A stretch of 64,000 nt of DNA, from positions 23,001-87,000 of the forward strand of contig CAYJWF010000003.1 of NCBI GenBank assembly GCA_964373805.1. Direction: 5' to 3'. Positions 40,150-63,808 of this stretch are shown piece after piece. The number at the start of each line of letters is the position of its first letter. The first letter of the stretch is position 1. The stretch comes from an uncultured Planctomycetia bacterium. GTDB taxonomy: Bacteria; Omnitrophota; Gorgyraeia; 1-14-0-20-64-10. The notes below the pieces were generated by a model. The model was not told the DNA's origin and made no database searches. It was given only the letters and a program-made list of their open reading frames with translations. A program made the position numbers and the translations under genes.

Positions 40150-40937
40150 TGTTCTGCTGCCTTCACGACTTGTCCCGTGTTCTCCAAGGCTGGTTTGACT
40201 CCGTGGGCTTTTAACCAGAACTCCACCAATGGAATCTGCCATTCGTAGTCCACATCGAGGCCCCCCCATTGCCTGAGCGGCCAAATTTTCTGTCCCATCC
40301 ATCTTTGCGGGAGCAACCCGCTCTTTAGATTTTCGAGGCAGCGTGGCCTGACGACAGACACTCCCATGTCTGCAAAATAGACATCCCCTTGCGAATCCCT
40401 GTCACAGCTTAAAGTGGTCGGATCTCCCCAGGCCTCAAACGGTACGAATGGATGGAGCAAACCGTCGGAGCCTAGTCGGCGTGCTCGGGGTGGACTCCAC
40501 ATGTTATAGACCGACACCGATACCGCAGAATCAATCTCTGGGCGTTTTCTAAGGACATCCACTCCTTCATCAATTAATGCCGAGGTAACCGTCGGGGCGT
40601 TGCAGAACAATAACACCATCAGCTCCAGATGCTTCCCCTCAGCCATCAGCTCATTACGGATGATCTGGTAACCGTGGACAAAGGCCTCTTCGCCTAGAGC
40701 TTCTTGAGTAGCCAGATGAGGTGGTCGATCGAGGATTCGTGCGCCGTATTGAATCCCAATCGCCTTGATGAGGTCAGAATCCGTGGACACAAAAACGCGA
40801 TCTACGCTCCGGGCCCCTTGTGATGCCAGCAGAGGATAAACCATAAGGGGGCGGCCAAGGATGGGAGTGAGATTCTTTCCCGGAAACCCCCTGCTTCCTT
40901 CCCGGCCTATAAGGAGCGCACAGATCATAGCTCTCAT
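40146..40937 (-). CDS. acylneuraminate (nonulosonic acid) cytidylyltransferase family protein (CTP_transf_3)
   Basis: ICALLIGREGSRGFPGKNLTPILGRPLMVYPL matches the NeuA/PseF/KdsB N-terminal glycine-rich nucleotide-binding motif. ATGA overlap at 40937. Confidence 0.7.
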   Translation of the reverse strand: MRAMICALLIGREGSRGFPGKNLTPILGRPLMVYPLLASQGARSVDRVFVSTDSDLIKAIGIQYGARILDRPPHLATQEALGEEAFVHGYQIIRNELMAEGKHLELMVLLFCNAPTVTSALIDEGVDVLRKRPEIDSAVSVSVYNMWSPPRARRLGSDGLLHPFVPFEAWGDPTTLSCDRDSQGDVYFADMGVSVVRPRCLENLKSGLLPQRWMGQKIWPLRQWGGLDVDYEWQIPLVEFWLKAHGVKPALENTGQVVKAAEQ

Positions 40938-42955
40938 CCTTCTTCGGAAAGCGACCGCGCTAACCCGATCGAGAAAGCCTCCATCAAATCGGGAGGGCCA
41001 AGCGTGACTCGGATGCAGTTGGCCAAACAAGGGGAATCAAAAGGCCCTTTAACCAAATAGCCGTGATAACGGAGTCTTTCTACTAATTGCGATGGGTCAC
41101 AGCGGCCTGCAACGCGCAGCAGCATGAAGTTCGTGTGGGTGGGCAGAGGAATCAACCCTAAGGCCTGGGCCCGTTTCGCCAGCCATTGTCCACCTGCTTC
41201 GACTTGGGCGACATAGTCGTCCATGATCTGAGGCTGCTTGAGGAGTTGACCTAGGCACATAATGGCTATGCTGTTGATATCATGGACTGACCGTACCTTA
41301 GAAAGATGGCTCATGACTTCAGGGTGTCCAGCAGAAAAGCCGATCCGTAGGCCTGCCAGTCCGGCTGCCTTGGAGAAAGACCGGATCGCCACCAGATGAG
41401 GGAATCGTTTAATCCAGGGAAGTATCGTGGTACGAGAGAATGGATAGTAGGCTTCATCAACCACCAGCAAGGCTCCTACCGAGGCTGTCCGATCAGCTAA
41501 CTGAAGCAGAACATCTTCCCCTAAGAGAGTTGCCGTTGGCTGGTTCGGGTTAGCGATCATGACCAAACGGACTCCTTCTGACACGCTACGGACCAATTGC
41601 TCGCCGTCCAGTACAAGGCTTTCGTTAAAGGAGATCTTCCGAGCCTTTGCATGAAACATCTGTGCATAAACCTCGTACATCGCGTAACTGGGATCCAGCA
41701 TCACCACGGTATCCCCTGGCTGGACGTAGGCTTGATAAAGGGCCTTAATGGCGGCATCGGATCCTGCCGTTAAGAGAAGCTGCTCTTCTGGGATGCCAAG
41801 CCATGCGCTCAACTGTTGGTAAAGCCCATGGGTGACGGGGTAATGGGTAAGCAACCGACTATGAAAGGATTGGCGCAGGGCGGTCATGAACTGTTCGGGT
41901 AACGGCTGCTGTCGCTCATTTCGATTCAGCCGGATGAGATTCTCCTGGGCACTTGGCTCCGGAGTCCGGTACAGCCCACTTAATCCAGGTACCGGCAGTG
42001 GGAGGGTCTTGGGACTCTCCACCGGAACGGGACCGGTTTCTGAGAACTTTGTGGCAACAGAAAAGATGGTATCGCAAAGCCAACGGGTTTTCAGACATCG
42101 GGCATATTCTTGATCGAGTTTCCAGTCGAATAGGTGGCTGTACTTGCCTTTCCCTCCCGGCTGTCCGGTGAGGAGCCAATGGATGTGATTGGAAAGATCG
42201 TAACGTTGCTCGGGAAACATTTTAAAACGAAAACCGGCCTGTTCCAAAACCCTGGCTAGCGTCCTGTGCGAGTAGTTGAAATAATGGGCCTTCTGCCAAT
42301 AGAACCGGTCGAAACTTTCCAGTTGGTAGAATCGCACTAAGGCGTCGTCTACGTTGGGCACTTCCATCGCCAACAGTCCCCCAGGCTGAAGCATATCGCG
42401 GAATTTGGCCAAACTTCTAACCGGTCTCTGCAGATGCTCGATCACATAGTAGGCCAGGATGAGATCAAAGCGTTCTTTCGCCACCTCATAAAGATTCGAA
42501 ACCGTCCGGATTCCCCGCCGATTGGCGTAATCCGCATAAAGCTTACCAGGTTCCACGCCAGTAATCGATGCCACGTAAGGCTCGACGGCAGCCAGCAGGA
42601 AACCGGTTGAACTTCCAATCTCAAGGACTCGCATGCTTGAACGCAGGTACGGCTGCAAGTGAACCAAACGGCGTTTTGCCTCCGCTTGGTTTTTCTTGAA
42701 GTGCTCTTCGGGCTCTGTCTCGCCAGGTCCTCCCCTCTCCTTCATGTAGTGCGCAAATTCAGCGCTGTAGAACTGCTTCTCCTCCTCTTCCATCATGGTC
42801 GGATGAATGAAGACAATCTCACAGGCGCTGCATCGACAGACAAAGGACCCGGGCATTCCCCAGACGGTATCGGCGATGCGATAGCGTGTTCCCCCATCTT
42901 GACAGAGCGAACATGGGATATCGACCTTGGGAGCCGTGTTGCTCCAGTTGGGCAT
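40934..42955 (-). CDS. bifunctional fusion: Zn-ribbon SAM-dependent methyltransferase (N) + class I/II PLP-dependent aminotransferase (C)
   Basis: N-terminus has CSLCQDGG...CRCSACEI then LEIGSSTGFLLAA motif I and LILAYYVIEHL. C-terminal ~370 aa has VVDEAYYPF and the SFSKAAGLAGLRIGF PLP-Lys motif, as in histidinol-phosphate/aspartate aminotransferase-like enzymes. Confidence 0.7.
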   Translation of the reverse strand: MPNWSNTAPKVDIPCSLCQDGGTRYRIADTVWGMPGSFVCRCSACEIVFIHPTMMEEEEKQFYSAEFAHYMKERGGPGETEPEEHFKKNQAEAKRRLVHLQPYLRSSMRVLEIGSSTGFLLAAVEPYVASITGVEPGKLYADYANRRGIRTVSNLYEVAKERFDLILAYYVIEHLQRPVRSLAKFRDMLQPGGLLAMEVPNVDDALVRFYQLESFDRFYWQKAHYFNYSHRTLARVLEQAGFRFKMFPEQRYDLSNHIHWLLTGQPGGKGKYSHLFDWKLDQEYARCLKTRWLCDTIFSVATKFSETGPVPVESPKTLPLPVPGLSGLYRTPEPSAQENLIRLNRNERQQPLPEQFMTALRQSFHSRLLTHYPVTHGLYQQLSAWLGIPEEQLLLTAGSDAAIKALYQAYVQPGDTVVMLDPSYAMYEVYAQMFHAKARKISFNESLVLDGEQLVRSVSEGVRLVMIANPNQPTATLLGEDVLLQLADRTASVGALLVVDEAYYPFSRTTILPWIKRFPHLVAIRSFSKAAGLAGLRIGFSAGHPEVMSHLSKVRSVHDINSIAIMCLGQLLKQPQIMDDYVAQVEAGGQWLAKRAQALGLIPLPTHTNFMLLRVAGRCDPSQLVERLRYHGYLVKGPFDSPCLANCIRVTLGPPDLMEAFSIGLARSLSEEG

Positions 42956-50503: not shown

Positions 50504-51462
50504 GATTCCTTCTCGAGGCAGACAAAGTGGTAACCGCCCAGCGCCTTACTTCTTCCATCCAATTCAACCAGTTCTTTGAGAAAGGGTCGAATCGTATCAA
50601 TCCAATCCGATTTGATGGACCGGCGATTGGCTTCGCTCATCTTTTCTACCATTCGAATCAGGACGGGAAATAGGGGGCGCAGGCCGATGTCCCATACCCT
50701 CAAGGTCAAAGGAGAAAGATAGGAATGGTGCGACACCATCTTAAACCTGAGGCTATGGGAGAGCCTTCCCAATTCAGATTGAGAAATGGTCCAGCGGATG
50801 GATTCGCTTCTTCCTCTGTTTAACAAATGGAGAATGGGTGAGCCCGACTCTCTCCAGTGGTAACTCATGCAGTATTCCTTGAGCTTGGGATCCGGTAAAC
50901 ACAGGAAGGCCCGGCCTCCCCACCGGAGGATCCGCCACACCTCCTTGAGCGATGCCTCAGCCGAATTGAGCCAGTACAACATATTGGAAAAAATCGTCTG
51001 AAAGGATTCCTCCTGGAAAGGAAGCCCATGGTTGGCGTTTGAGGCAGCCACCCAACGATAGAATCCCAACGCTTCTGCCTGGCGTAATAAATTCGGTTTG
51101 CCGTCCAAGGCCCCATCGAATGAGGCCTCCGGTTTTCTTACGATCCAAGCCGGTTCGAAGGGAGCTCGAAGGCAGTCATACACGTCCCCATGGGTCCAAA
51201 AGCCCTTTACATCGACGTTTCGATACCAATCAAACTCCGGTGAGAACGATCCTCCCGCTGTGATGAAACTGAAAATTCCGTTCCCACAACCGAGGTCAAG
51301 CGATGGAGAATCGAACCTCACCGATGCAATCACAGAGGAAGCAATGGCATCCCATAACGCCGATTCGGGTCGAAGCCAGTGTACATTCAGATGCTCCTCA
51401 AGAAAACAGAATGGCCCCGCTTGAGATCCCCGTAAAGCTGGACTAGAGATTTGCTGAGGCAT
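50494..51462 (-). CDS. class I SAM-dependent methyltransferase
   Basis: LDLGCGNGIF motif I. Start assigned to internal ATG (MPQQISSP). The first 54 aa of track ORF 50494..51624 look antisense-derived. Confidence 0.6.
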   Translation of the reverse strand: MPQQISSPALRGSQAGPFCFLEEHLNVHWLRPESALWDAIASSVIASVRFDSPSLDLGCGNGIFSFITAGGSFSPEFDWYRNVDVKGFWTHGDVYDCLRAPFEPAWIVRKPEASFDGALDGKPNLLRQAEALGFYRWVAASNANHGLPFQEESFQTIFSNMLYWLNSAEASLKEVWRILRWGGRAFLCLPDPKLKEYCMSYHWRESGSPILHLLNRGRSESIRWTISQSELGRLSHSLRFKMVSHHSYLSPLTLRVWDIGLRPLFPVLIRMVEKMSEANRRSIKSDWIDTIRPFLKELVELDGRSKALGGYHFVCLEKESCR

Positions 51463-52078
51463 AGGCCTGCCTGCGTTGGAGCACCTTCTCTGCCAGCCAG
51501 AAGTCGAATTCATCGTCAATCTCGAGGTTTTGTTCTCGATCAGTGAACATTCGCTCGATTCGTGTTCCATACCGATCCCCTTGTTGGATGAGACTCGCTC
51601 TAATGACGTACACGTTTCCATCATCGCAAAAGAGGCCGGGCAACTCTTGGCGCCTCAACGTATTCTTCCCATACTCAACAGATTTACAGAGAAAGCCGGT
51701 CGCAAGGGAGTCTGCCTTTGTTTCGAGAAACCTCTCGATGCAACGATCGATGAGACCCGGTTCCCGAATAGGGGAAGTCGCCTGAAGGAGGACCACTATC
51801 TCTGCTGGGATCTGGGTGAGTACCTGTTGGAGAACGCTTAAGGTTGTCGCTTCGTCGCTGGCTAGGTGGTGGGGTCGGTGAATGAACTCACCTGTCCATC
51901 GCCGTGTCACCTGAGCAATCTCAGGGTCTTCCGTAGAAACGACATGCCGATCGAGAAGTCGGGAGGCCTTACCGGCTTCGATCGTCCAGGCGATGAGCGG
52001 CTTACCGGCCAAGATCCGGATATTCTTCCGAGGGACCCCTTTGCTTCCTCCCCGTGCGGGGGTTATTCCCAAGATCAT
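51443..52078 (-). CDS. acylneuraminate/pseudaminate cytidylyltransferase (CMP-nonulosonic acid synthetase family)
   Basis: MILGITPARGGSKGVPRKNIRILAGKPLIAWTIE is the canonical NeuA/PseF/LegF N-terminal motif. 211 aa. Confidence 0.75.
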   Translation of the reverse strand: MILGITPARGGSKGVPRKNIRILAGKPLIAWTIEAGKASRLLDRHVVSTEDPEIAQVTRRWTGEFIHRPHHLASDEATTLSVLQQVLTQIPAEIVVLLQATSPIREPGLIDRCIERFLETKADSLATGFLCKSVEYGKNTLRRQELPGLFCDDGNVYVIRASLIQQGDRYGTRIERMFTDREQNLEIDDEFDFWLAEKVLQRRQAYASANL

Positions 52079-53768: not shown

Positions 53769-54788
53769 TCATTCCAACTTTTCCCAGGTAATGACCTCGT
53801 CCTTCCGGATGGCTTGCTTGGCGAGTCGGCCGATAACGGTCCGATAAAGCGAAGGGGCTACGCCCGTTCCAGGGCGCTTCAAAATAATCTGGTCCTCAGA
53901 GATCGCTTCCCCTGCCTGAATGTCACTACGAGCGATGGCGCTCTTCCGAGTCTGCAGCCGCATATTCTCCTCAGTGGGGGCTGGACGTTTCACCTCATCT
54001 CCTAGGGCTTGTTCAAGCTCCCGAACGGCTAAGACCAACGCCTTCATTTCCGGTGGATCTGCAGAGAAAAAAGCGTCGGGTGAATCCAGGTGCTTATCGA
54101 GAGTAAAATGGCGCTCAATCACCGATGCTCCTAAAGCGACAGCACCCAGCGGAACACTCAGGGTCATCGTGTGATCTGAAAAGCCAATCGGCGCCTTGTA
54201 CGCCTTTTGCAGGGCACGAATGGCCTTGAGATTAACGAGGTGAAGATCCTTGACCGGATAGTTGGAAATGCAGTGGAGAATGGCCACCTGGTTGTTTCCC
54301 GTGTCGAGGATAGCTCGCACAGCCTCATCGACCTCCGCTAACGTAGCCATCCCCGTTGAGAGAATAATCGTTTTACCCTTCTGGGCGACATAGCGGATGA
54401 ACGGGAGATTGGTCAGATCGTCCGAACCGACCTTGTAAGCCGGCACCTCAAGTCGTTCAAGGAGGTCCACATCATCAAAATAGCTGGGGGTTGAAAAGAC
54501 CATGATCCCACGGTTTCGAGCGTGAGCAAAAAGTTCACCGTGCGCTTGTTCAGAAAGCTCATATCTCTGGAATTCTTCAAATTGATTCGTGCCACCGGCC
54601 TCTGCTGGAAAATCGACCATTCGAGAAGTAACCGTTTCTGCCCTAAACGTCTGGAACTTCACAGCATCTACGCCGCATTCCATAGCAGCGTCGATAGTGG
54701 CCTTGGCCTCTTCCAGTGTATTAAAGTTATATCCGATCTCAGCGATAATGAAGACCGGTTGGCCTGTGCCGATGAAACGATCCGCCAT
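53769..54788 (-). CDS. N-acetylneuraminate/pseudaminate/legionaminate synthase family (NeuB/PseI/LegI), full length with C-terminal SAF domain
   Basis: PVFIIAEIGYNFNT (IAEIGxNHxG-like), AVKFQTF, KVGSDDLTN, ILSTGMATL, GFSDHT, IERHFTLD, then a C-terminal SAF/antifreeze-like region. Start at internal ATG (MADRFIGTG) at 54788. Confidence 0.8.
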   Translation of the reverse strand: MADRFIGTGQPVFIIAEIGYNFNTLEEAKATIDAAMECGVDAVKFQTFRAETVTSRMVDFPAEAGGTNQFEEFQRYELSEQAHGELFAHARNRGIMVFSTPSYFDDVDLLERLEVPAYKVGSDDLTNLPFIRYVAQKGKTIILSTGMATLAEVDEAVRAILDTGNNQVAILHCISNYPVKDLHLVNLKAIRALQKAYKAPIGFSDHTMTLSVPLGAVALGASVIERHFTLDKHLDSPDAFFSADPPEMKALVLAVRELEQALGDEVKRPAPTEENMRLQTRKSAIARSDIQAGEAISEDQIILKRPGTGVAPSLYRTVIGRLAKQAIRKDEVITWEKLE

Positions 54789-54816
54789 CTTTACCTTCTG
54801 CTGGAGGGTGGAAGGA

Positions 54817-55536
54817 TTATTCAAGGATTTTCTCCAAAGTTTGCGCGCCGATTCCTTTCAAGATATCGCCACTCCTTGGACCATGGTTGAATAGAAGATC
54901 AATAGCAGACATACAAGGCAGAAACGTTTCATGGAGCTGCTGATAAATGGGATGGTGGAACGCCTGAATTTGAACCTCAACGCCCTCACTGCGGAACTTC
55001 TCTAGGTCAAGGTAGGCTTTCCCTGAAATACCGGACAGATACCTTGAAGCCCCAACCTTCTGACAAATCTCTAGGTTCAAATCTCCCTTTCGTGCTTGGA
55101 TTCCAAGTTCCGAAGAACGTTTCAAGGGTACGGAGATCGCAAAGGCCTCCAGCAGGTACCGGATGATGGTTTCGTTAAGGTCAACAAGCCATTTCCATTG
55201 GCAGTGATACAGCTTTTCAAAAAATTCGGCGTGCGCAGGAAAAAAGCAGGCCTTCCGGTAACAATCCATCAGAAGACGTAAGCAGGTCCTTCGCCAATGA
55301 GGACTCCCCGTATTATCAATCTCAACCTGATTAATGGATTGCAGGTGTCTTCCCTTAATCAAGATGGGAACCGTAAGCCAGCGGAATCCTTCAGAGGATC
55401 GGATTCTGTTCCGGTTTTGGAAATACTGTTTTCTGTACTGCACATGATCCAGAAGAACCAATAGATCCACCTGCCGGGCCTTATCGAAAAAACCAAGCCA
55501 CGGAAGGTGCTCGGGTTGGTGGATGGTTACCGTCAT
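54817..55536 (-). CDS. WbqC-like family protein
   Basis: MTVTIHQPEHLPWLGFFDKARQVDLLVLLDHVQY is the conserved WbqC N-terminus. Start at internal ATG. The upstream 101 aa of track ORF 54817..55839 are antisense-like. Confidence 0.65.
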   Translation of the reverse strand: MTVTIHQPEHLPWLGFFDKARQVDLLVLLDHVQYRKQYFQNRNRIRSSEGFRWLTVPILIKGRHLQSINQVEIDNTGSPHWRRTCLRLLMDCYRKACFFPAHAEFFEKLYHCQWKWLVDLNETIIRYLLEAFAISVPLKRSSELGIQARKGDLNLEICQKVGASRYLSGISGKAYLDLEKFRSEGVEVQIQAFHHPIYQQLHETFLPCMSAIDLLFNHGPRSGDILKGIGAQTLEKILE

Positions 55537-55564
55537 CTGGCCTGCCTTTTTACCTGCCCGGGGT

Positions 55565-57638: not shown

Positions 57639-58563
57639 CTGCCTTATTCCAAGTTTGGATCTGTTGTTCCTGACGGGAGCGATACCAATCGATATAACGC
57701 TCTAGTCCATCTCGGAAGGTGGTGGTGGCCTTCCAGCCCAACTCCTTCTCCGCCTTGGCGCTGTGGACACGCTTGCCCGGAAAATCCCCTGGTCGAGCGG
57801 AGGTGGCCAGAACCTGAACGTCTCCTAAGATCTCCTGAAGGGTCTGGACAATCTGTTTAATGCTGATACGATCACTTCCATCCAGGTTGTAGATCTGGTT
57901 GACTGCACCGGGTTTCAGGCTCAGCACAATGCCTTCCGCTAAGTCCTCCACGTAAACAAACTGGCGGAACTGCATGCCGTCCCCTGCAACCGTTAGCGGC
58001 TCTCCCTTCAAGGCCCTGCCGACGAAAATGGGGATGACTGCCCCATCGCGCGCTCGCGGACCATAAGGAATGCCAAAGCGAAGGATCGTGTATTCCAAGT
58101 TGTACAGTACGGAATAGGCACGGCAGTAGTATTCGGAGGCAATCTTGGTGGCCGTATAAAGGTGCGAAGGGGGTGGGATCGGCGTCTCCTCATTCACCTC
58201 CGCATCGGGGCAATCGCTGTAAACCCAGCTGGTACTTCCATAGAGGAGGCGCTTGACACGACAGCGTCGTGCAGCCTCTAGAACACAGAGGGTACCCCGT
58301 GTATTAACGGTTTCTGCGTAGGATGGATCTTCCATGACCTCCTTGACATCGGCGACTGCCGCGAGATGTATGACGGCGTGGATTCCCGCCATGGCAATCC
58401 GGAGAGCCTCAACGTCCAGGATGCTTCCGATGAAATGTTCCACCTCTGTATGAACCGTTGAACGATGATGGTCAAAGATCAGGGGTGTAATCCCGTGCGA
58501 CATCAAGCGATCCACCACATGGGAACCAATAAACCCCGCGCCACCTGTCACGAGAACTCTCAT
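57619..58563 (-). CDS. NAD-dependent epimerase/dehydratase (GalE-like SDR)
   Basis: VTGGAGFIGSHVV and YTATK motifs. Confidence 0.75.
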   Translation of the reverse strand: MRVLVTGGAGFIGSHVVDRLMSHGITPLIFDHHRSTVHTEVEHFIGSILDVEALRIAMAGIHAVIHLAAVADVKEVMEDPSYAETVNTRGTLCVLEAARRCRVKRLLYGSTSWVYSDCPDAEVNEETPIPPPSHLYTATKIASEYYCRAYSVLYNLEYTILRFGIPYGPRARDGAVIPIFVGRALKGEPLTVAGDGMQFRQFVYVEDLAEGIVLSLKPGAVNQIYNLDGSDRISIKQIVQTLQEILGDVQVLATSARPGDFPGKRVHSAKAEKELGWKATTTFRDGLERYIDWYRSRQEQQIQTWNKADAALRP

Positions 58564-59573
58564 GCGACCGTTCCTTTTTGGGCAGACGCCAGATGCCGTC
58601 GAAGAAGCTCCAAAGCGGTCTTCGCCGCTTTGGTCTGAGATTCCACGGTGGCCCCTGCCATATGCGGTGTGATGACGATCTGCCCCCGTTGATGGTAAGC
58701 CAAAAGAGGAGAGTTCTTCTGCTGATGGGTTACCTCCCCGGCTAACACATCCAATCCAACGCGCAGATCCGGTCGCTTGGAAAGAACATCGGCCAAGTCC
58801 TGTTCAAGGATGACCTCTCCACGGGATGTATTGACCAGACAAGCCCCCCATTTCAGTCTTTCGAGAAAGGAGTGGTTAATGAATCCTGTCGTTTCAGGGG
58901 TAAGTCGACAGCAAAGACAGATAACTTCCGATCGGCTAAAGAGTTCCTCCAGCGATTCGGTGGGATAGACATCGGAGGTGACGTACGGATCGAAGTAGGA
59001 TACTCGAGCCCCAAAGGCAATGCAGTAATGGGCCAACCGCTGACCGATTCGCCCAAGGCCGATGATTCCCACCCGTTTACCCTGCAATTCGTGGCCTCGA
59101 AGTCGCTCCTCTCGATCCCGCCATCGCCCAGCAGAAACTTCTTGGATTGCTACATCGAGGCGGCGAAGGGTGTTCAGAAGTAACAAAAACGTGAATTCCG
59201 AGCTGGCCGAGATCTGCACGAGAGCGGCTCGATCATCCAAGAGGCTGTAGACGGAAACCCCTCGCCGGGTACACGCCTCCAGATCGATGTGGTTACAGCC
59301 GGTGGAGGGGGTAACCAACACGGACAGAGAAGGATACAGGTCCAAGATCGCCTCATCGATGACAAACAGTTGTCCAGGGTTTACCACCCATGCCGTAAGG
59401 TCCTCCGCAGGACTCAGCTCTTGACGACGCCAGATCTCTTTAAAGATGGTTGGGATCAAGGACTGGTAGGCCTCCACGAGCTTTCCGAGGAATTCAAACG
59501 GCGCACTAAAGAGGCACCATCCGGTTTTTACACCTGCGAGAGCCGTTGGGGAAGATGGATGGGGTGTCCCCAT
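58560..59573 (-). CDS. D-isomer-specific 2-hydroxyacid dehydrogenase family protein (NAD-binding)
   Basis: GIIGLGRIGQRLA dinucleotide-binding motif, conserved R/E/H catalytic arrangement (TSRG...ITPHMAG). Confidence 0.7.
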   Translation of the reverse strand: MGTPHPSSPTALAGVKTGWCLFSAPFEFLGKLVEAYQSLIPTIFKEIWRRQELSPAEDLTAWVVNPGQLFVIDEAILDLYPSLSVLVTPSTGCNHIDLEACTRRGVSVYSLLDDRAALVQISASSEFTFLLLLNTLRRLDVAIQEVSAGRWRDREERLRGHELQGKRVGIIGLGRIGQRLAHYCIAFGARVSYFDPYVTSDVYPTESLEELFSRSEVICLCCRLTPETTGFINHSFLERLKWGACLVNTSRGEVILEQDLADVLSKRPDLRVGLDVLAGEVTHQQKNSPLLAYHQRGQIVITPHMAGATVESQTKAAKTALELLRRHLASAQKGTVA

Positions 59574-59574
59574 A

Positions 59575-60318
59575 TCAAAGATTCCTCGCTACCCCGGAGA
59601 GGTTGTTCAAGGTTGCCTCTGCCATCATGGACAACTCCGGTCCCAGAGTCGTCAAAAGACGAAACTCATCTGGTGTAGCGCTTAAGATGTGATCGCGGAT
59701 AACCTGGGAAGTCTTATTCAACGTAAAGTGCTTCTCGATGTAACGTGCACCCCGAGCTGCAGCCAACAAACAAGCGGCGATTCCATGGCAATGGTCGCTG
59801 TAGCCATAATAGCCATCCGATCCAAAAAGCGGGGGGAAATCCGTTAGGTCCGAAGGATAGGTCGGGTATTTCGACCGGCAGTAAATGTAATGCAGGCGAT
59901 GGGCATCGGGCTGCCCGAATGGGAAACCAGGCCTGTCCCACATACCAAGCGAAACGTAGGTCGGCTTGCCCTCCGATAAGATCCGCTCGCATAAGGCGGG
60001 GTTGTCAACCACCGTCCTTGAAGCGATCTTGTATCGCTGCAATCCAATGCCCTGGGCAAGGGCGAGCCCTTCCTCCGTTATGAGGGAAGCTAACATCTCA
60101 ATGCCGATGCCCTCACACCAGGCCTTTAGTTGCCTAGCTTGCTTCTCATCGATCTGATTGATTTCCCCTGGATTGCAACGCCATCCGAACTGGAACTTCG
60201 CCAGTTCAGCGCCGGCCATCCTTGCCTGCCGGATCAGCTCGTAGGCCAGATCGAAATTGCCATCGTGGTTTAATCCGATCTCAGCAACAAGAACCATCTG
60301 TTTATCTGCTAAGGCCAT
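59575..60318 (-). CDS. NeuB-family TIM-barrel protein lacking the C-terminal SAF domain (divergent nonulosonic/ulosonic acid synthase-like)
   Basis: VAEIGLNHDGN, AELAKFQ, YKIASR, YVSLGM, YSDHCHG and IEKHFTLNK match NeuB barrel motifs. The protein ends ~40 aa after the barrel, 247 aa. Confidence 0.6.
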   Translation of the reverse strand: MALADKQMVLVAEIGLNHDGNFDLAYELIRQARMAGAELAKFQFGWRCNPGEINQIDEKQARQLKAWCEGIGIEMLASLITEEGLALAQGIGLQRYKIASRTVVDNPALCERILSEGKPTYVSLGMWDRPGFPFGQPDAHRLHYIYCRSKYPTYPSDLTDFPPLFGSDGYYGYSDHCHGIAACLLAAARGARYIEKHFTLNKTSQVIRDHILSATPDEFRLLTTLGPELSMMAEATLNNLSGVARNL

Positions 60319-60336: not shown

Positions 60337-61737
60337 TCACATCGCAGTAGACAGACTTACCGTTCTTTGTAAAAGGATCTGTTCGATAAGCCAAGCGTCA
60401 TAAGGCGTTTTAATTTGATAGCTCTCGTGCCCGGGCATAACCACATGCCCAACTTTTCGACCGAGGAGGTCTTTCGCGGTCAACACATCGCGCCAGCATG
60501 CCTTGATCGCTCCATTGTCCACATACAGTGCTTCCCGCTCGATTCGTATCTGATGGTGCATGGCTGGGTTTAAGGGTGTGAGTCCATGGATGCCATGGAC
60601 ATAATGAAGTTTATAATCCTCATAGACGCTCAGGACGCTGTCTGTGTTATACAGGATGAGCGTGTCAATCGCTTCCCGGATATGTTCTGCTCGACGAAGC
60701 GGAGTATGAACATTCAGCAGAACAAGAATATCCGAGTAGACCCCGTGTTCCTCTTCCAGGCGGCGCACAGCATCCTCGGCTATTTCGCTTTCCAGGATCC
60801 GATCCCCAGAAAGTTCCACTGGCCGGAGCATCGCTAGGACTTCGGGAAAACGCCGACAGTATTCAACTACTTGCGGATCATCGGTAGTCACCAGCATGAC
60901 CTCAAAACTGCCAGTTTGTTGGGCGGCCTCTATGGTGTAATCAATCAGCAGGCGATCTGCCAACTTCGTCAGGACGATGTTCGGTAGAGCTTTATACGTG
61001 TTTTTAGCGGTCACAATCGCCACGGCACGGGGTGTACCGTTCCCACCTCTTCGTTCCACTATATCTCGCTTGATCCGACCTCGTGCTTGCAGCAATCGTG
61101 ATTCATCTTTTGTGAGTGACTCATCATGTTGCCGGTAGAAGAACAGAGGTGTGTGGACATTCGCTACGCCATAACGGTGTAGTATCTTTAGCCACAACTC
61201 ATAACCATCCTGGCTGTTGTAACGTTCGTCATATCCACCCAAGCTCTTGAGCGCCCGTTTACGGATTAAGGTGCCTGCGCCGTGCGCAGGAAGATCCAAA
61301 AGTTGTGCCTCTTGCCCAATCCGTTTACGCTGCTCAAGCCCTAAATAGTTGCCACGTTCATCTACATAGATGTAGTTCGGATAGACTAACGCCACCTCCG
61401 GATAGCGATCAAGATAAGATCCCAGGACAAGGAGTGCATTCTCATCCAGGTAGTCATCGGCATCCAGCCGCATGATATAAAGGCCACGGGCAATGGCAAG
61501 GGCCTCATTCGCAGACACCTGAAGACCCCGCACTTGAGGATGGGTGATGACGGAGATCTTTGAAGGGTTACTTGCCCGATAGGAGGCGGCAATGGCCGAC
61601 GTTTGGTCCTGCGACCCATCATCAATGATGATCAGTTCCCAATCAGGCATTGTTTGTAACAGTACGCTTTCTATCGCCTGGGCGAGGAAGTGTCCATACC
61701 GGTGGCATGGAATGTAAACGGTAACTCTACATTCCAT
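60337..61737 (-). CDS. fusion protein: GT2 glycosyltransferase (N) + acylneuraminate cytidylyltransferase-like CTP_transf_3 domain (C)
   Basis: N-terminus has VYIPCHRYGHFL...IIIDDGSQD...RLDADDYL (GT-A DxD). C-terminus has AIVTAKNTYKALPNIVLTKLADRLLIDYTIEAA, a NeuA/KdsB-like glycine-poor variant. Confidence 0.6.
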   Translation of the reverse strand: MECRVTVYIPCHRYGHFLAQAIESVLLQTMPDWELIIIDDGSQDQTSAIAASYRASNPSKISVITHPQVRGLQVSANEALAIARGLYIMRLDADDYLDENALLVLGSYLDRYPEVALVYPNYIYVDERGNYLGLEQRKRIGQEAQLLDLPAHGAGTLIRKRALKSLGGYDERYNSQDGYELWLKILHRYGVANVHTPLFFYRQHDESLTKDESRLLQARGRIKRDIVERRGGNGTPRAVAIVTAKNTYKALPNIVLTKLADRLLIDYTIEAAQQTGSFEVMLVTTDDPQVVEYCRRFPEVLAMLRPVELSGDRILESEIAEDAVRRLEEEHGVYSDILVLLNVHTPLRRAEHIREAIDTLILYNTDSVLSVYEDYKLHYVHGIHGLTPLNPAMHHQIRIEREALYVDNGAIKACWRDVLTAKDLLGRKVGHVVMPGHESYQIKTPYDAWLIEQILLQRTVSLSTAM

Positions 61738-63808
61738 GCCACACCTTTTCGTTGATAATCGGCACGGCCACTTCTCTGGTCTCTATCTCAAGAGGAATCT
61801 GTTGTTTTCTAGGTTGATCAGGGTAAGAATCGCCGCGCTGCACCCTGACGACCAAGCCCCAAATCGCCTCACGGAAGCGCTGAATATTCTGGCCATCGGC
61901 GAAGTAAGTCTGCTCATGGGCAAAACGCTCCCATTCGCAATCCAGGATGGGATGACCATAGAGGGCTCCCTTCATGGCGCGTACGAATTGATCGGCCTTG
62001 GTTATGACGAAGTCGGCCCCGTAATCACCAAAGGTCACTTCCCCTAATCCCTCGGTATCAAACGAAAAACATTTTTTCCCAGCCGCTCCCGCTTCGATAA
62101 CCACGGAAGAGGCTGAATTGCCGACCACAACATCAGCGACTGCAATCCATTCATAGGTAGAGAGCTCAACCGAATCCCAGATAACACGAGGGTGAGTCAT
62201 CAGAGACCGCAGGGACGGTTCGCCACGGTACCTTTCCAAGCTTTTCCGGCTGCGGGGTCGAAGGACGACCCATAACTCTGGAATGGCCTCTAGGGCTTGG
62301 AGGATCCCACGGTACAACTCTGGAAAACGATCTGGGATTTGATATTCAACATCAGCCGGATGAGTGGGTAATGTGACCAAAACCACGGCACCATGGATTC
62401 CCCACCGACTCCGTATCTGGGTACGTAGTGATCCGAGACTTTCTGGTTTTAGAGCTTGTACCACATAATCCAACCGATGATTTCCAATGGGCATACATTC
62501 AACAGCATCCCAATGGTGGCCGAACGCCTTTCTAAATCTTTCGTTCCATACACACAAACGATTCATAAACAGATAGCGGATCTCTGGAAATACATGGGTC
62601 AGAGAATTTGCGGAATGGTGTACACCGACGGTGGCTCTGCCAAAATGGTTTGCAACGATGGTTCGCATCACGCTGTTGGGCTCATAATCAGCGCACTCAA
62701 CGCGAACAGAGTACTGTACACGGCGATTGAACAATAGCTCCTTCAGCAGTGCCGACAAGATGAAGCCTGATGCAAGAACGACGGCAGGTGGTTCCATCAA
62801 AAGCGCGACAGGATTTTGGATAAGTGCCTTTGCCAAACTTGCTGCTAGTCTGTAGATCTCAGACCGATGAGACTTGTCCGCACGAAGGGTGACCGCGTCA
62901 AACCATCGGATTCCCCGTTGTGACATCAAACGTTCTTGTTCGGCCCGTTCTTCTGCGGTAAGCCTCCATGAACTGTAATAGAAGGCTACTGTATGGCTGT
63001 TTAATTCCCCACCGAAAAATGACTCATTATCCCATTGCAGCCGCTTCTTATCGGACAACTTCCAAACCAGAGGAACGACGACCGGTACGTTTACAACCGG
63101 CTGGTCGGGAACACCCGGATGAAAAGATCGAAAGATATGGCGAATCAACACCGCTGGCCAGACAGCCCCATTCATAAAAAGTGCCGTTATCCTTCGCCGC
63201 CACACGCTCCATGGATTGAGCATCCGAATAGATCGAGGAAACTGGGCTCCCTTGAGCTCGAAGTGGCGACGAGTCTGCCAAGGATCGTCATCTTCTGGAA
63301 TCAGGGTAATGGCGCCTTCCTCCTTCAGGAGATATTCTGCAAACCGATAGAACTGAGTTGCGGCATGGATGTATGGTAGCAGAAGTCTGCTGTACATCCG
63401 GTCCACAGCGTCATTCGCCACAATCTTGTACAATACCTGATAACTTTTCATGCACCGGACACGCTGCATGGCCGCTTCGACATAGACGTCGCTGGCGTAA
63501 AGATTCAACTGTCCCAGTCGGTTACGTGTGGCACGATCGACCCTACTGACCTGACCGCCTGCCAACCGGCGGAGCAACCACCATGTCAGCCGGTTCACCC
63601 GTCCTTCGGGCCGCCTATCCTCAAGCGTATAAGGGTCGAATACCAGAACTTTCTTTGCCTGTCGGATCTCGCGCCATGAAGCAACTATTCGGGCCAGGCC
63701 GACCGATTGTAATAAGACAATATCTCGGCTTCTATTGCTTTCCGGCATATTCTTCCACGAAGCCTCGTTCCATAATCTTGTAACTTTCTTCCGCCTTCTG
63801 CGGTTCAC
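61727..63808 (-). CDS. hypothetical protein, paralog C of the three-member family (putative transferase)
   Basis: 693 aa. Central block VRVECADYEPNS...RATVGVHHSANSLTH aligns with the other two paralogs. Start uncertain: an internal ATG ~63748 reduces overlap with the next ORF. Confidence 0.5.
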   Translation of the reverse strand: MNRRRRKKVTRLWNEASWKNMPESNRSRDIVLLQSVGLARIVASWREIRQAKKVLVFDPYTLEDRRPEGRVNRLTWWLLRRLAGGQVSRVDRATRNRLGQLNLYASDVYVEAAMQRVRCMKSYQVLYKIVANDAVDRMYSRLLLPYIHAATQFYRFAEYLLKEEGAITLIPEDDDPWQTRRHFELKGAQFPRSIRMLNPWSVWRRRITALFMNGAVWPAVLIRHIFRSFHPGVPDQPVVNVPVVVPLVWKLSDKKRLQWDNESFFGGELNSHTVAFYYSSWRLTAEERAEQERLMSQRGIRWFDAVTLRADKSHRSEIYRLAASLAKALIQNPVALLMEPPAVVLASGFILSALLKELLFNRRVQYSVRVECADYEPNSVMRTIVANHFGRATVGVHHSANSLTHVFPEIRYLFMNRLCVWNERFRKAFGHHWDAVECMPIGNHRLDYVVQALKPESLGSLRTQIRSRWGIHGAVVLVTLPTHPADVEYQIPDRFPELYRGILQALEAIPELWVVLRPRSRKSLERYRGEPSLRSLMTHPRVIWDSVELSTYEWIAVADVVVGNSASSVVIEAGAAGKKCFSFDTEGLGEVTFGDYGADFVITKADQFVRAMKGALYGHPILDCEWERFAHEQTYFADGQNIQRFREAIWGLVVRVQRGDSYPDQPRKQQIPLEIETREVAVPIINEKVWHGM

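What the first reader, a model, noticed from the sequence alone, without database searches (positions are those of the whole stretch)
60337..61737. GT2 glycosyltransferase fused to a CMP-sugar synthetase-like domain
The N-terminal ~215 aa are a GT-A fold with a DxD motif. The C-terminal ~250 aa resemble acylneuraminate/KDO cytidylyltransferases. A protein that both activates an ulosonic acid with CTP and transfers a sugar would be an unusual activation-transfer fusion. Alternatively the C-domain is a non-catalytic CMP-sugar binding module presenting donor to the GT.
Basis: seen in the sequence. Interest (0 to 1): 0.6.

Follow-up and report, generated by a model that had tools for sequence, protein, structure and literature searches.

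The report
Glycosyltransferase fused to disabled CMP-sugar synthetase
The gene really encodes a sugar-transferring enzyme fused to a copy of a sugar-activating enzyme, but that copy has lost the residues needed for activation and sits beside a separate intact activator, so it probably binds the activated sialic-acid-like sugar rather than making it.

Summary
Window 60337-61737 (-) encodes a 466-aa protein with an N-terminal GT2/GT-A domain (Pfam 101 bits; invariant LDADD and QDG) and a C-terminal domain homologous to CMP-NeuAc/Pse/Kdn synthetases (Pfam 29.8 bits; Foldseek TM 0.86 to 6ifd).

The "activate and transfer" reading is not supported. Throughout the family the residues essential for cytidylyl transfer are replaced: K21 to I/V/L, N22 to V, Q104 to S/N, D209 to Q, D211 to K/R. 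The cytosine-reading Arg71 (R305) and carboxylate-binding Arg165 (R398) are kept, and new invariants (E400, R401, H431) line the same pocket.

The fusion is common (at least 278 species genomes, many phyla). It lies in a conserved three-gene set with a NeuB-type synthase and a separate cytidylyltransferase homologue (intact P-loop where inspected): 35/35 and 33/35 of well-covered loci. The window has two such canonical enzymes of its own.

Best reading: it is the glycosyltransferase of a nonulosonic-acid glycan module, and its C-domain is a repurposed CMP-sugar-binding site, possibly a metal-independent transferase site. The family is uncharacterised and I found no literature on it. Moderate interest.

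The parts
60337..61737 (-). Whole gene: 466-aa GT2 + cytidylyltransferase-like fusion protein
   Evidence: ORF. Identical gene call. Domain hits. 120 full-length homologues.
61108..61728 (-). GT2 / GT-A glycosyltransferase domain (residues ~4-210), with DxD (D92, D94, D95) and putative catalytic base D177
   Evidence: Pfam PF00535 at 101.5 bits. 6p61 at TM 0.90. D92, D95 and D177 are invariant and D94 is D in 120 of 121 homologues; the RLDADD and QDG motifs are conserved across all 80 loci (one locus reads RLDPDD).
61030..61107 (-). Helical linker (residues ~211-236), the least conserved part of the protein
   Evidence: Model helix at 212-230. Mean entropy 1.84 bits, against 1.13 for the GT2 domain and 1.49 for the CT-like domain.
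60373..61029 (-). CMP-nonulosonate-synthetase-like domain (residues ~237-455) with a remodelled active site. Motifs: K245-N246-T-Y248 ... I254-V255; R305; N342-V-H344-T-P-L-R348; R398-x-E400-R401-E402; N408-G; H431; Q441-I-K443
   Evidence: Pfam PF02348 at 29.8 bits. Residue-level alignment to 6ifd and 1eyr. Foldseek TM 0.86. Residue census.
59575..60318 (-). Short NeuB-type synthase (247 aa, no SAF domain), 19 nt downstream. This is the syntenic partner of the fusion.
   Evidence: Pfam NeuB at 96.8 bits. Catalytic and metal motifs retained. A NeuB-family gene lies within 400 bp on the same strand in 42/80 loci and is present in 35/35 well-covered loci.
58560..59573 (-). D-isomer 2-hydroxyacid dehydrogenase, a recurrent third gene in window-type loci
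   Evidence: Pfam 2-Hacid_dh_C at 150 bits. Present in 14-17 of 80 loci next to the NeuB partner.
51443..52078 (-). Canonical NeuA/PseF-like cytidylyltransferase of the same operon (PARGGSKGVPRKN, LLQATSPIR, EIDDEFD)
   Evidence: NCBIfam PseF at 99 bits. Alignment to 1qwj and 6ifd.
40146..41030 (-). Second canonical cytidylyltransferase in the locus (GREGSRGFPGKN; LDVDYE)
   Evidence: Pfam CTP_transf_3 at 42 bits. Translation. phmmer.
53769..54824 (-). Full-length NeuB + SAF nonulosonic acid synthase, the second synthase of the locus
   Evidence: Pfam NeuB at 281.8 bits plus SAF. NCBIfam NeuB at 347 bits.
61727..63808 (-). 693-aa protein of unknown family whose stop overlaps the fusion's start by 11 nt (probable translational coupling). 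It is not a conserved partner.
   Evidence: ORF. Only a weak TIGR04417 hit. No PDB relatives. Homologue near the fusion in only 5/80 loci.

Best explanation
The protein is the glycosyltransferase component of a conserved three-gene module for a nonulosonic-acid (sialic-acid-like) glycan. The module consists of a NeuB-type synthase, a separate canonical CMP-sugar synthetase, and this fusion.

The N-terminal GT2 domain is an ordinary metal-dependent (DxD) inverting transferase. It adds a sugar from a nucleoside-diphosphate sugar.

The C-terminal domain descends from a CMP-nonulosonate synthetase but can no longer carry out Mg/CTP-dependent cytidylyl transfer. It has lost the triphosphate-, ribose- and Mg-binding residues. 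It keeps the arginine that reads cytosine and the arginine that binds the sugar carboxylate, and it has gained its own invariant His/Glu/Arg residues in the same pocket. It therefore most likely binds the CMP-activated ulosonic acid made by the neighbouring enzyme.

My preferred mechanism is inferred, not shown. I propose that this pocket is a second, metal-independent transferase site that adds the ulosonic acid next to the sugar added by the GT2 half. The metal-ligand positions (D209/D211) are filled by uncharged or basic residues (Lys/Arg in the window's clade), which together with the invariant Arg348/Arg401 could stabilise the CMP leaving group, and His431/Glu400 could act as the base. 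The protein would then be a two-site enzyme analogous to bifunctional capsule polymerases.

Shown: the domain homology, the loss of catalytic residues, the retention of the cytosine and carboxylate contacts, strong purifying selection, and the synteny triad. Inferred: CMP-sugar binding. Speculative: catalysis by the C-domain.
For: 1. Residue mapping by HMMER alignment to 6ifd and 1eyr:
- R12 to K245
- G13-G14-S15 to N-T-Y
- K21 to I254
- N22 to V255
- Q104 to N342
- D209 to Q441
- D211 to K443
- R71 = R305 (retained)
- R165 = R398 (retained)
- N175 = N408 (retained)

2. Published function of those residues:
- K21A abolishes activity. N22 binds the ribose hydroxyls. R12, G14, S15, K16 and K21 bind the phosphates. 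Mg2+ sits on D215 (= D211). R71 gives cytosine specificity. R165/169 binds the sialic acid carboxylate (PMC6580227).
- D209A is inactive. D211A lowers kcat 15,000-fold. Q104N/E/L lower it 800- to 20,000-fold (PMC2901514).

3. Census of 121 homologues:
- K21 position is I/V/L in 118.
- D211 position is K/R in 117.
- D209 position is Q/R/N in 112.
- R305 is present in 121/121 and R398 in 115/121.

4. Across 80 genome loci down to 39% identity, none has the full canonical set. R348, E400 and H431 are invariant and R305, R401 and N408 nearly so.

5. An exhaustive HMMER search shows a clean split. Stand-alone proteins of ~230 aa are canonical. Proteins of ~455-480 aa are remodelled and carry LRxER(E/D) plus H431.

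6. The C-domain is under strong constraint: 38 of 219 columns are at least 95% conserved, against 59 of 206 in the GT2 domain.

7. Synteny: NeuB in 35/35 and a separate CT-like gene in 33/35 loci with at least 9 kb on each side. The three genes are contiguous in varying order, or the CT and NeuB are fused into one ~530-aa protein.

8. The window has two canonical CTs for its two synthases.

9. No other candidate ulosonic-acid transferase is consistently present. The LIC12162 family occurs in only 10/35 well-covered loci.

10. An MsbA/PglK-type exporter lies directly downstream in 19 loci.
Against: - No biochemical data exist for any member.
- The residues that replace the catalytic set (N246, Y248, H344, K443) are fixed only in the window's clade and vary in the 40-45% identity clades. 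This fits a binding role as well as or better than a conserved catalytic mechanism.
- No known glycosyltransferase family uses a cytidylyltransferase-derived domain, and the domain matches no sialyltransferase model.
- The window itself also carries a LIC12162-family transferase and other GTs that could be the ulosonic-acid transferase.
- Metal-binding residues have moved position within this superfamily before: CKS uses D98/D225 where CNS uses D209/D211. An unorthodox but active synthetase is therefore not strictly excluded.
Confidence: 0.5

Rival explanations
1. The C-domain is non-catalytic: a pseudoenzyme that only binds a cytidine nucleotide or CMP-ulosonic acid, or the ulosonic-acid end of the acceptor. 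It could act as an allosteric switch that licenses the GT2 domain when activated sugar is available. It could act as an acceptor-recognition module. It could also be a dimerisation or docking scaffold, possibly pairing with the neighbouring canonical cytidylyltransferase through the domain-swapped 'dimerisation' loop.
For: - Catalytic residues are lost but the cytosine and carboxylate contacts are kept.
- The P-loop and the residues replacing D209/D211 drift between clades, as expected if only binding matters.
- The most invariant motif (R398-x-E400-R401) lies in the loop that, in CMP-NeuAc synthetases, reaches into the partner protomer's active site.
- A canonical CT is almost always adjacent.
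Against: - Conservation is very high for a mere scaffold: 38 columns are at least 95% conserved, concentrated in pocket loops.
- The family-specific invariant His431 and Glu400 are typical of catalytic rather than purely binding residues.
- No other transferase is consistently linked to the synthase + CT pair.
Confidence: 0.3
2. One reading: a genuine activation-plus-transfer enzyme. The C-domain would be an active but unorthodox cytidylyltransferase, with a relocated metal site or a Lys-assisted mechanism. It would activate the product of the adjacent short NeuB-like synthase.
For: - The NeuB-type synthase is the tightest syntenic partner.
- Metal ligands are known to occupy different sequence positions in CKS and CNS enzymes.
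- K245 conservatively replaces R12, and acidic invariants (E400, E402, D366, E373) exist that could in principle bind metal.
- In the window no canonical CT lies directly beside the short NeuB.
Against: - K21, N22, Q104, D209 and D211 are all replaced. Single substitutions at these sites abolish activity or cut it by three to four orders of magnitude.
- In divergent clades the whole P-loop loses every basic residue, e.g. 'VPVVVDAGFTPGNPF'.
- 33/35 well-covered loci encode a separate CT, often fused directly to the NeuB.
- The window has two canonical CTs for two synthases.
- NCBIfam scores are far below every cytidylyltransferase equivalog cutoff.
Confidence: 0.12
3. The C-domain holds CMP-ulosonic acid as the acceptor, not the donor. 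The GT2 domain would then glycosylate the still-activated sugar, producing a CMP-linked disaccharide for another transferase to use.
For: - Retained CMP-sugar-type contacts lie next to an apparently active GT2 site in one polypeptide.
- Modification of nonulosonic acids at the CMP-linked stage is known in other pathways (my own knowledge, not tested here).
Against: - It requires a further, unidentified transferase in every locus, and none is consistently present.
- No precedent was found in the literature searches.
Confidence: 0.06

Closest known systems
CMP-N-acetylneuraminate / CMP-pseudaminate / CMP-Kdn synthetases (NeuA, PseF; PDB 6ifd, 1eyr, 9ftc, 9t4z; Pfam CTP_transf_3)
   Same: The C-domain has the same fold (TM 0.78-0.86) and recognisable sequence homology over the whole domain. 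It includes the dimerisation insert, the RPxEL cytosine-binding arginine, the (S/T)PLR motif, the carboxylate-binding arginine and NGA.
   Different: The catalytic Lys21/Asn22, Gln104 and both Mg-binding aspartates are replaced throughout the family. The domain scores 56.8 bits against a 205.7-bit equivalog cutoff. It has extra invariant residues (E400, R401, H431). It is always fused behind a GT2 domain, whereas canonical enzymes are stand-alone proteins of ~230 aa.
Soluble GT2 / GT-A glycosyltransferases such as the Leptospira GT 6p61, B. subtilis SpsA/EpsE/TuaG, and the A2 domain of chondroitin polymerase K4CP
   Same: The N-domain has the GT-A fold, a DxD motif and a conserved acidic base, with strong Pfam, PDB and Foldseek matches. 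SpsA also sits in a legionaminic-acid locus with a NeuB (SpsE) and a CT (SpsF), and was shown not to be the Leg transferase (PMC7439481).
   Different: Those enzymes lack the C-terminal cytidylyltransferase-like domain. All NCBIfam hits are far below equivalog cutoffs, so the donor and acceptor cannot be assigned.
Two-domain bifunctional glycan synthases (E. coli K4 chondroitin polymerase 2z86, Pasteurella heparosan synthase PmHS2 8viw). By function only, the Neisseria meningitidis W/Y capsule polymerases that fuse a hexosyl- and a sialyltransferase (my own knowledge).
   Same: Two Rossmann-like nucleotide-sugar-binding domains lie in tandem in one soluble polypeptide. Foldseek aligns 430-540 columns to K4CP and PmHS2. 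The proposed logic of alternating two sugars is the same.
   Different: The second domain here is not a DxD GT-A and not a known sialyltransferase fold family. The overall superposition is poor (rmsd 14-21 A), so only the individual domains match. Polymerase activity is untested.
Bifunctional or pseudo-domain CMP-sialic acid synthetases: bacterial NeuA with a C-terminal esterase domain, and vertebrate CMAS with an inactive phosphatase-like C-domain (my own knowledge, not tested here)
   Same: These are precedents for the cytidylyltransferase fold occurring in fusion proteins, and for catalytically silent domains being retained in this pathway.
   Different: In those proteins the cytidylyltransferase domain is the active one and the partner domain is accessory. 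Here the cytidylyltransferase-like domain is the one that has lost the canonical chemistry.

Membership tests
Glycosyltransferase family 2 (Pfam PF00535, GT-A fold, inverting) | Sequence match above the curated threshold | tested here: met
   101.5 bits against a gathering score of 23.3, residues 6-165.
Glycosyltransferase family 2 (Pfam PF00535, GT-A fold, inverting) | DxD metal/nucleotide-binding motif | tested here: met
   L91-D92-A93-D94-D95. D92 and D95 are D in 121/121 and D94 in 120/121. RLDADD is conserved in all 80 genome loci (one locus reads RLDPDD).
Glycosyltransferase family 2 (Pfam PF00535, GT-A fold, inverting) | GT-A three-dimensional fold | tested here: met
   Foldseek TM 0.90, rmsd 2.5-3.0 A to 6p61. 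N-domain pLDDT is ~90.
Glycosyltransferase family 2 (Pfam PF00535, GT-A fold, inverting) | Conserved acidic catalytic base C-terminal to the DxD | tested here: inconclusive
   D177 in the QDG(Y/H)ELW motif is invariant (121/121; 80/80 loci). Its spatial equivalence to the catalytic base of solved GT2 enzymes was not checked on coordinates.
Glycosyltransferase family 2 (Pfam PF00535, GT-A fold, inverting) | Glycosyl transfer from an NDP-sugar | not testable with these tools
   Needs an enzyme assay.
CMP-nonulosonate / CMP-Kdo synthetases (Pfam PF02348 CTP_transf_3; NeuA, PseF, KdsB) | Homology and fold of the nucleotidyltransferase domain | tested here: met
   Pfam 29.8 bits against 22.6. phmmer to 6ifd at E 1.7e-10. 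Foldseek TM 0.86.
CMP-nonulosonate / CMP-Kdo synthetases (Pfam PF02348 CTP_transf_3; NeuA, PseF, KdsB) | Score above a curated functional (equivalog) cutoff | tested here: not met
   PseF 56.8 against 205.7. KdsB subfamily models 20-26 against 193-255.
CMP-nonulosonate / CMP-Kdo synthetases (Pfam PF02348 CTP_transf_3; NeuA, PseF, KdsB) | P-loop (A/P)-A-R-x-x-S-K-G-x-x-x-K-N that binds the CTP phosphates and ribose (R12, S15, K16, K21, N22) | tested here: not met
   The motif here is T-A-K-N-T-Y-K-A-L-P-N-I-V. The K21 position is I/V/L in 118/121 and the N22 position is V/A. The loop is degenerate in divergent clades. The window's own stand-alone CTs keep the motif.
CMP-nonulosonate / CMP-Kdo synthetases (Pfam PF02348 CTP_transf_3; NeuA, PseF, KdsB) | Two acidic Mg2+ ligands (D209 and D211 in NmCNS) | tested here: not met
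   Q441 and K443 here. The positions are Q/R/N and K/R in 112 and 117 of 121. A few distant members keep one Asp, and none keeps the whole canonical set.
CMP-nonulosonate / CMP-Kdo synthetases (Pfam PF02348 CTP_transf_3; NeuA, PseF, KdsB) | Gln of the QxTSPLR motif (Q104), with a sugar-binding and catalytic role | tested here: not met
   N342 here; S/N/G across the family. Q104N in NmCNS loses 800- to 20,000-fold in kcat.
CMP-nonulosonate / CMP-Kdo synthetases (Pfam PF02348 CTP_transf_3; NeuA, PseF, KdsB) | Cytosine-specific Arg (R71) and carboxylate-binding Arg of the dimerisation loop (R165) | tested here: met
   R305 in 121/121 and R398 in 115/121. Roles taken from PMC6580227.
CMP-nonulosonate / CMP-Kdo synthetases (Pfam PF02348 CTP_transf_3; NeuA, PseF, KdsB) | CTP + ulosonic acid -> CMP-ulosonic acid + PPi activity | not testable with these tools
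   Needs an enzyme assay. Predicted absent.
Known ulosonic-acid transferases (sialyltransferase families, Maf, KpsC/KpsS-type, LIC12162 family) | Sequence membership in any such family | tested here: not met
   No Pfam or NCBIfam hit other than GT2 models and cytidylyltransferase models. A LIC12162 profile does not hit the fusion.
Two-GT-A bifunctional synthases (K4CP / PmHS2 type) | Two GT-A domains, each with its own DxD | tested here: not met
   The second domain has no DxD. The 'DID' position reads Q-I-K. The global superposition is poor, at rmsd 14-21 A.

The most novel reading that the evidence does not exclude
The C-terminal domain is a previously unrecognised type of metal-independent CMP-ulosonic-acid glycosyltransferase that evolved from a CMP-sugar synthetase. 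The metal ligands would have been swapped for basic residues, and a His/Glu base gained. The fusion would then be a self-contained two-site enzyme that lays down a hexose-nonulosonic acid unit. Together with its synthase, activator and often an ABC exporter, it would form a portable module that spreads sialic-acid-like surface glycans across many environmental phyla.
Probability: 0.25. Interest if true: 0.8.

Novelty: new variant of a known kind. Interest (0 to 1): 0.45.

Why it matters
Transferases for nonulosonic acids (pseudaminic acid, legionaminic acid and relatives) are the least understood step of these pathways. In most environmental bacteria they are unidentified.

This fusion family is widespread. 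It occurs in hundreds of species-level genomes across Planctomycetota, Chloroflexota, Omnitrophota, Myxococcota, Proteobacteria, Nitrospinota, Elusimicrobiota and others. It is the only glycosyltransferase consistently linked to the synthase + activator pair.

If its synthetase-derived domain binds or transfers the CMP-sugar, three things follow:
- It would give a genomic marker for these glycans.
- It would be a clear case of an enzyme active site being repurposed from making a nucleotide sugar to using it.
- It would be a candidate new glycosyltransferase family for chemoenzymatic synthesis.

If the domain is merely a regulatory pseudoenzyme, it is still a tidy example of pathway coupling, but of narrower interest.

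A practical point follows either way. Automatic annotations that call these proteins 'CMP-N-acetylneuraminic acid synthetase' (seen) are probably wrong.

Tried and rejected
1. 'The fused domain is the locus's activating enzyme.' Rejected after finding separate cytidylyltransferase homologues (intact P-loop where inspected) in 33/35 well-covered loci and two canonical ones in the window.

2. Random decay of a dead domain. Rejected because the domain is nearly as constrained as the GT2 half, and the substituted positions are themselves conserved.

3. Searching for split versus fused arrangements. The exhaustive HMMER search gave a clean dichotomy: canonical stand-alone versus remodelled fused. 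Short remodelled hits cannot be told apart from contig-edge fragments, so a true stand-alone remodelled domain remains unproven.

4. Co-variation of pocket residues with the type of NeuB partner (short, long or CT-fused). Differences exist, for example at positions 342, 344, 412 and 443, but they are confounded with phylogeny. I do not use them as evidence.

5. Looking for an obligate alternative ulosonic-acid transferase. The LIC12162 family is present in only 10/35 well-covered loci. The 693-aa upstream protein is not conserved with the fusion and has no detectable relatives in the PDB.

6. Literature. Four full-text searches and five papers gave no description of this fusion.

7. AFDB Foldseek was unavailable.
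Full report
**1. Observation**

The minus strand of window 60337-61737 carries an intact 466-aa ORF. An independent gene call on another assembly of the same sequence gives the identical protein and the same neighbours.

Residues 6-165 match Pfam Glycos_transf_2 at 101.5 bits (gathering score 23.3). Residues 240-360 match CTP_transf_3 at 29.8 bits (gathering score 22.6). NCBIfam's PseF model covers 239-447 (E 2.4e-15), but at 56.8 bits against an equivalog cutoff of 205.7.

Sequence search of the PDB finds GT-A enzymes for the first half (6p61, E 5e-22; chondroitin polymerase). It finds CMP-NeuAc synthetases for the second half (6ifd, 1eyr).

An AlphaFold2 model built on 25 homologues has mean pLDDT 84 and shows two alpha/beta domains joined by a helix. 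Foldseek matches the N-domain to 6p61 (TM 0.90). It matches the C-domain to CMP-NeuAc, CMP-Pse and CMP-Kdn synthetases (TM 0.78-0.86).

**2. The fusion is a family, not an oddity**

The 120 best database homologues are all full length (54-71% identity), and all but three carry both Pfam domains. A scan of one genome per species confirmed a relative in 278 genomes. The 80 loci kept span Planctomycetota, Chloroflexota, Omnitrophota, Myxococcota/Bradymonadales, Verrucomicrobiota, Acidobacteriota, Alpha-, Gamma- and Deltaproteobacteria, Nitrospinota, Elusimicrobiota, Bacillota and Actinomycetota, plus one bin labelled Nanoarchaeia.

Sources that name these proteins call them 'glycosyltransferase' or 'CMP-N-acetylneuraminic acid synthetase'. 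I found no paper describing the fusion.

**3. The GT2 half looks active**

D92, D95 and D177 are invariant and D94 is D in 120 of 121 homologues. The motifs RLDADD and QDG are conserved in all 80 genome loci down to 39% identity, with one locus reading RLDPDD.

**4. The cytidylyltransferase-like half has lost the canonical chemistry**

HMMER aligns the domain without gaps through the P-loop to 6ifd and 1eyr. The mapping, with family frequencies from 121 homologues, is:

| NmCNS residue | Window residue | Family composition |
|---|---|---|
| R12 | K245 | K 114, R 6 |
| G13-G14-S15 | N246-T247-Y248 | N246 in 120, Y248 in 107 |
| K16 | K249 | variable |
| K21 | I254 | I/V/L in 118 |
| N22 | V255 | V/A/I in 121 |
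| Q104 | N342 | S 88, N 27, G 6 |
| D209 | Q441 | Q/R/N in 112 |
| D211 | K443 | K/R in 117 |

The literature establishes what these residues do:
- K21A abolishes activity.
- R12, G14, S15, K16 and K21 hold the phosphates.
- N22 holds the ribose hydroxyls.
- Mg2+ sits on the D211 equivalent (PMC6580227).
- D209A is inactive, D211A lowers kcat 15,000-fold, and Q104N/E/L lower it 800- to 20,000-fold (PMC2901514).

As an internal control, the window's own stand-alone enzymes keep these motifs:
- ORF 51443-52078: PARGGSKGVPRKN, LLQATSPIR, EIDDEFD.
- ORF 40146-41030: GREGSRGFPGKN, LDVDYE.

In the 40-45% identity clades the P-loop degenerates further, for example to 'VPVVVDAGFTPGNPF'. No member of the 80 has the complete canonical set.

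**5. The domain is nevertheless strongly constrained and keeps the specificity contacts**

R305 (= R71) hydrogen-bonds the cytosine base and gives CTP selectivity. It is invariant in the 121-sequence set. R398 (= R165) binds the sugar carboxylate from the dimerisation loop and is present in 115/121.

R348 (in PLR), E400 and H431 are invariant, and R305, R401 and N408 nearly invariant, across all 80 loci. H431 lies in the strand corresponding to beta-11, which lines the nucleotide pocket. E400 and R401 flank the 'catalytic arginine' loop.

38 of 219 C-domain columns are at least 95% conserved, against 59 of 206 in the GT2 half and 3 of 26 in the linker.

An exhaustive HMMER search with the C-domain alone gave 6197 cluster representatives at E <= 1e-3, 755 at <= 1e-10 and 29 at <= 1e-30. 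It shows a clean dichotomy:
- Stand-alone proteins of ~230 aa are canonical (PARGGSKGxPxKN, QPTSPLR, DxD, no His431).
- Proteins of ~455-480 aa carry the remodelled site plus LRxER(E/D) and His431.

The pattern is loss of the triphosphate, ribose and Mg contacts with retention of the cytosine and carboxylate contacts. This is what one expects of a site that still recognises CMP-ulosonic acid (or CMP plus the sugar) but no longer uses CTP.

**6. Genomic context**

I clustered the neighbour ORFs across the 80 loci. The most frequent partners were:

| Partner | Loci (of 80) |
|---|---|
| NeuB-family synthase | 53 |
| SpsF/KdsB-like cytidylyltransferase with intact P-loop, ~250 aa | 31 |
| MsbA/PglK/HepA-type ABC exporter | 19 |
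| Asparagine-synthase-type amidotransferase | 18 |
| LarA-like racemase | 18 |
| D-2-hydroxyacid dehydrogenase | 14 |
| LIC12162-family transferase | 13 |

The synthase, the canonical CT and the fusion are contiguous in several orders: CT-FUSION-NeuB, NeuB-CT-FUSION and FUSION-NeuB-CT. In about 15 loci the CT and NeuB are fused into one ~530-aa protein placed directly upstream of the fusion.

Among the 35 loci with at least 9 kb on both sides, 35 have a NeuB-family gene and 33 have a separate CT. One of the two exceptions has a CT that my filter discarded because of ORF overlap. Among the 42 loci with at least 5 kb on each side, 36 have both within 5 kb.

In the window the fusion is followed 19 nt downstream by a short NeuB (247 aa, no SAF domain). 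Its catalytic and metal motifs AEIGxNH, KFQ, SDH and EKHFT are retained. A 2-hydroxyacid dehydrogenase comes next. Further down the same operon there is a full Pse/Leg-like set:
- 4,6-dehydratase/epimerase
- DegT aminotransferase
- radical SAM/SPASM protein
- WbqC
- NeuB + SAF
- PseG-like protein
- PIG-L deacetylase
- NeuA-like CT

Further downstream come methyltransferases, a B12-radical SAM enzyme, a LIC12162-family transferase and the second canonical CT. The locus therefore encodes two synthases and two canonical activators. The fused domain is surplus to activation.

**7. Interpretation**

What is shown:
- The protein is a GT2 fused to a CMP-nonulosonate-synthetase homologue.
- That homologue lacks the residues required for the family's reaction.
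- It is under strong purifying selection.
- It belongs to a conserved triad with a synthase and a genuine activator.

What is inferred: the C-domain binds the CMP-activated ulosonic acid.

What I prefer, but cannot show: the pocket has become a second, metal-independent transferase site. The positions of the metal ligands (D209/D211) are occupied by uncharged or basic residues (Lys/Arg in the window's clade), and together with the invariant Arg348/Arg401 these could stabilise the CMP leaving group. The invariant His431/Glu400 could act as the base.

Three considerations favour this reading:
- CMP-sugar transferases are typically metal-independent and lack DxD (discussion in PMC7439481). The GT2 site is therefore an unlikely user of a CMP donor.
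- The triad otherwise lacks a dedicated transferase. LIC12162 proteins are present in only 10/35 well-covered loci.
- A two-site enzyme plus the frequently adjacent exporter would make a self-sufficient module.

**8. Rivals**

- A purely non-catalytic binding, regulatory or docking pseudoenzyme (about 0.3). It is favoured by the clade-to-clade drift of the replacement residues.
- A genuine but unorthodox synthetase (about 0.12). It is kept alive only by the fact that metal ligands have shifted position between CKS and CNS enzymes.
- A site that holds CMP-ulosonic acid as the acceptor for the GT2 half (about 0.06).

**9. Comparison and membership**

The protein is a GT2 member by every criterion testable here. 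It is a homologue of the CMP-nonulosonate/Kdo synthetase family but should not be filed as a functional member. The P-loop, Gln104 and both Mg ligands were tested and not met, and the equivalog scores fail.

It is not a member of any known sialyltransferase-like family. It only loosely resembles two-GT-A synthases such as K4CP and PmHS2, where the match is domain by domain and the global rmsd is 14-21 A.

**10. Verdict**

The finding is real, and the headline interpretation is probably wrong. What remains is a widespread, uncharacterised glycosyltransferase family with a repurposed synthetase domain.

It is not surprising enough to rank high on present evidence. It is, however, a concrete and testable candidate for the missing transferase of environmental nonulosonic-acid pathways.

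- Interest: 0.45.
- Novelty: new variant of a known kind.

Noticed in passing
L060:8363-9955 (also L053, L055, L058, L059, L065, L066, L069, L070, L074-L078; L040-L044 downstream): Proteins of ~530 aa fuse an N-terminal cytidylyltransferase with an intact P-loop ('IPAKxxSxRLxxKN') to a full NeuB + SAF synthase. This is a genuine synthase-plus-activator fusion, sitting directly beside the GT2-CT-like gene.
   Followed up: partly
window 58560-59573 (-); L065:7071-8366 and 17 other loci: Either a D-2-hydroxyacid dehydrogenase (14-17 loci, including the window) or a LarA-like nickel-dependent 2-hydroxyacid racemase (18 loci) recurs next to the module. This points to unexplained 2-hydroxyacid chemistry tied to these ulosonic-acid genes.
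   Followed up: partly
window 59575-60318 (-): The NeuB partner is a short form (247 aa). It lacks the SAF domain that supplies the N-acetyl-binding arginine, but it keeps the catalytic and metal motifs. Its substrate may therefore be a sugar that is not N-acetylated. About 240-aa versions occur in 10-18 related loci.
   Followed up: partly
window 61727-63808 (-): A 693-aa protein with no Pfam domain and no PDB relative, and only a weak C-terminal hit to the 'PFTS motif' polysaccharide family. Its stop codon overlaps the fusion's start by 11 nt, which suggests translational coupling. It accompanies the fusion in only 5 of 80 loci.
   Followed up: partly
window 40146-41030 (-): A second canonical cytidylyltransferase (GREGSRGFPGKN, LDVDYE). 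It is overlapped at both ends by longer ORFs, and its true start is probably the Met near 40937.
   Followed up: partly
window 46633-48471 (-): A strong member of the LIC12162 transferase family (484 bits against a cutoff of 225). This is an uncharacterised family of ~600-aa proteins found in 14 of the 80 related loci, and a possible alternative ulosonic-acid transferase.
   Followed up: partly
window 34764-56704 (-): The whole stretch is one long minus-strand glycan-derivatisation locus. It contains several SAM methyltransferases, an FkbM methyltransferase, a B12-binding radical SAM enzyme (KedN5-like), a radical SAM/SPASM protein, WbqC, a methyltransferase-aminotransferase fusion (673 aa) and a PMT_2-like membrane protein. 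Together these suggest a heavily modified nonulosonic acid.
   Followed up: no
L055:11563-13365 and 18 other loci: An MsbA/PglK/HepA-type ABC exporter lies about 160 bp downstream of the fusion in 19 loci. This is consistent with export of a lipid-linked or polymeric glycan.
   Followed up: no
window 54817-55839 and 55565-56704 (-): The mechanical ORF list over-extends WbqC (340 aa against 239 aa in the independent gene call) and the radical SAM gene (379 against 352 aa). This creates apparent long overlaps that are probably not real.
   Followed up: yes
P0143, P0174, P0128, P0195, P0121: Unusual relatives of the C-domain. P0143 (315 aa) keeps the 'DID' metal motif together with the family-specific His431, so it may be an evolutionary intermediate. 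Proteins of 508, 588 and 1043 aa carry the remodelled domain at their C-terminus behind longer N-terminal regions. P0121 (240 aa, 63% identical) could be a true stand-alone remodelled domain or a contig-edge fragment.
   Followed up: no
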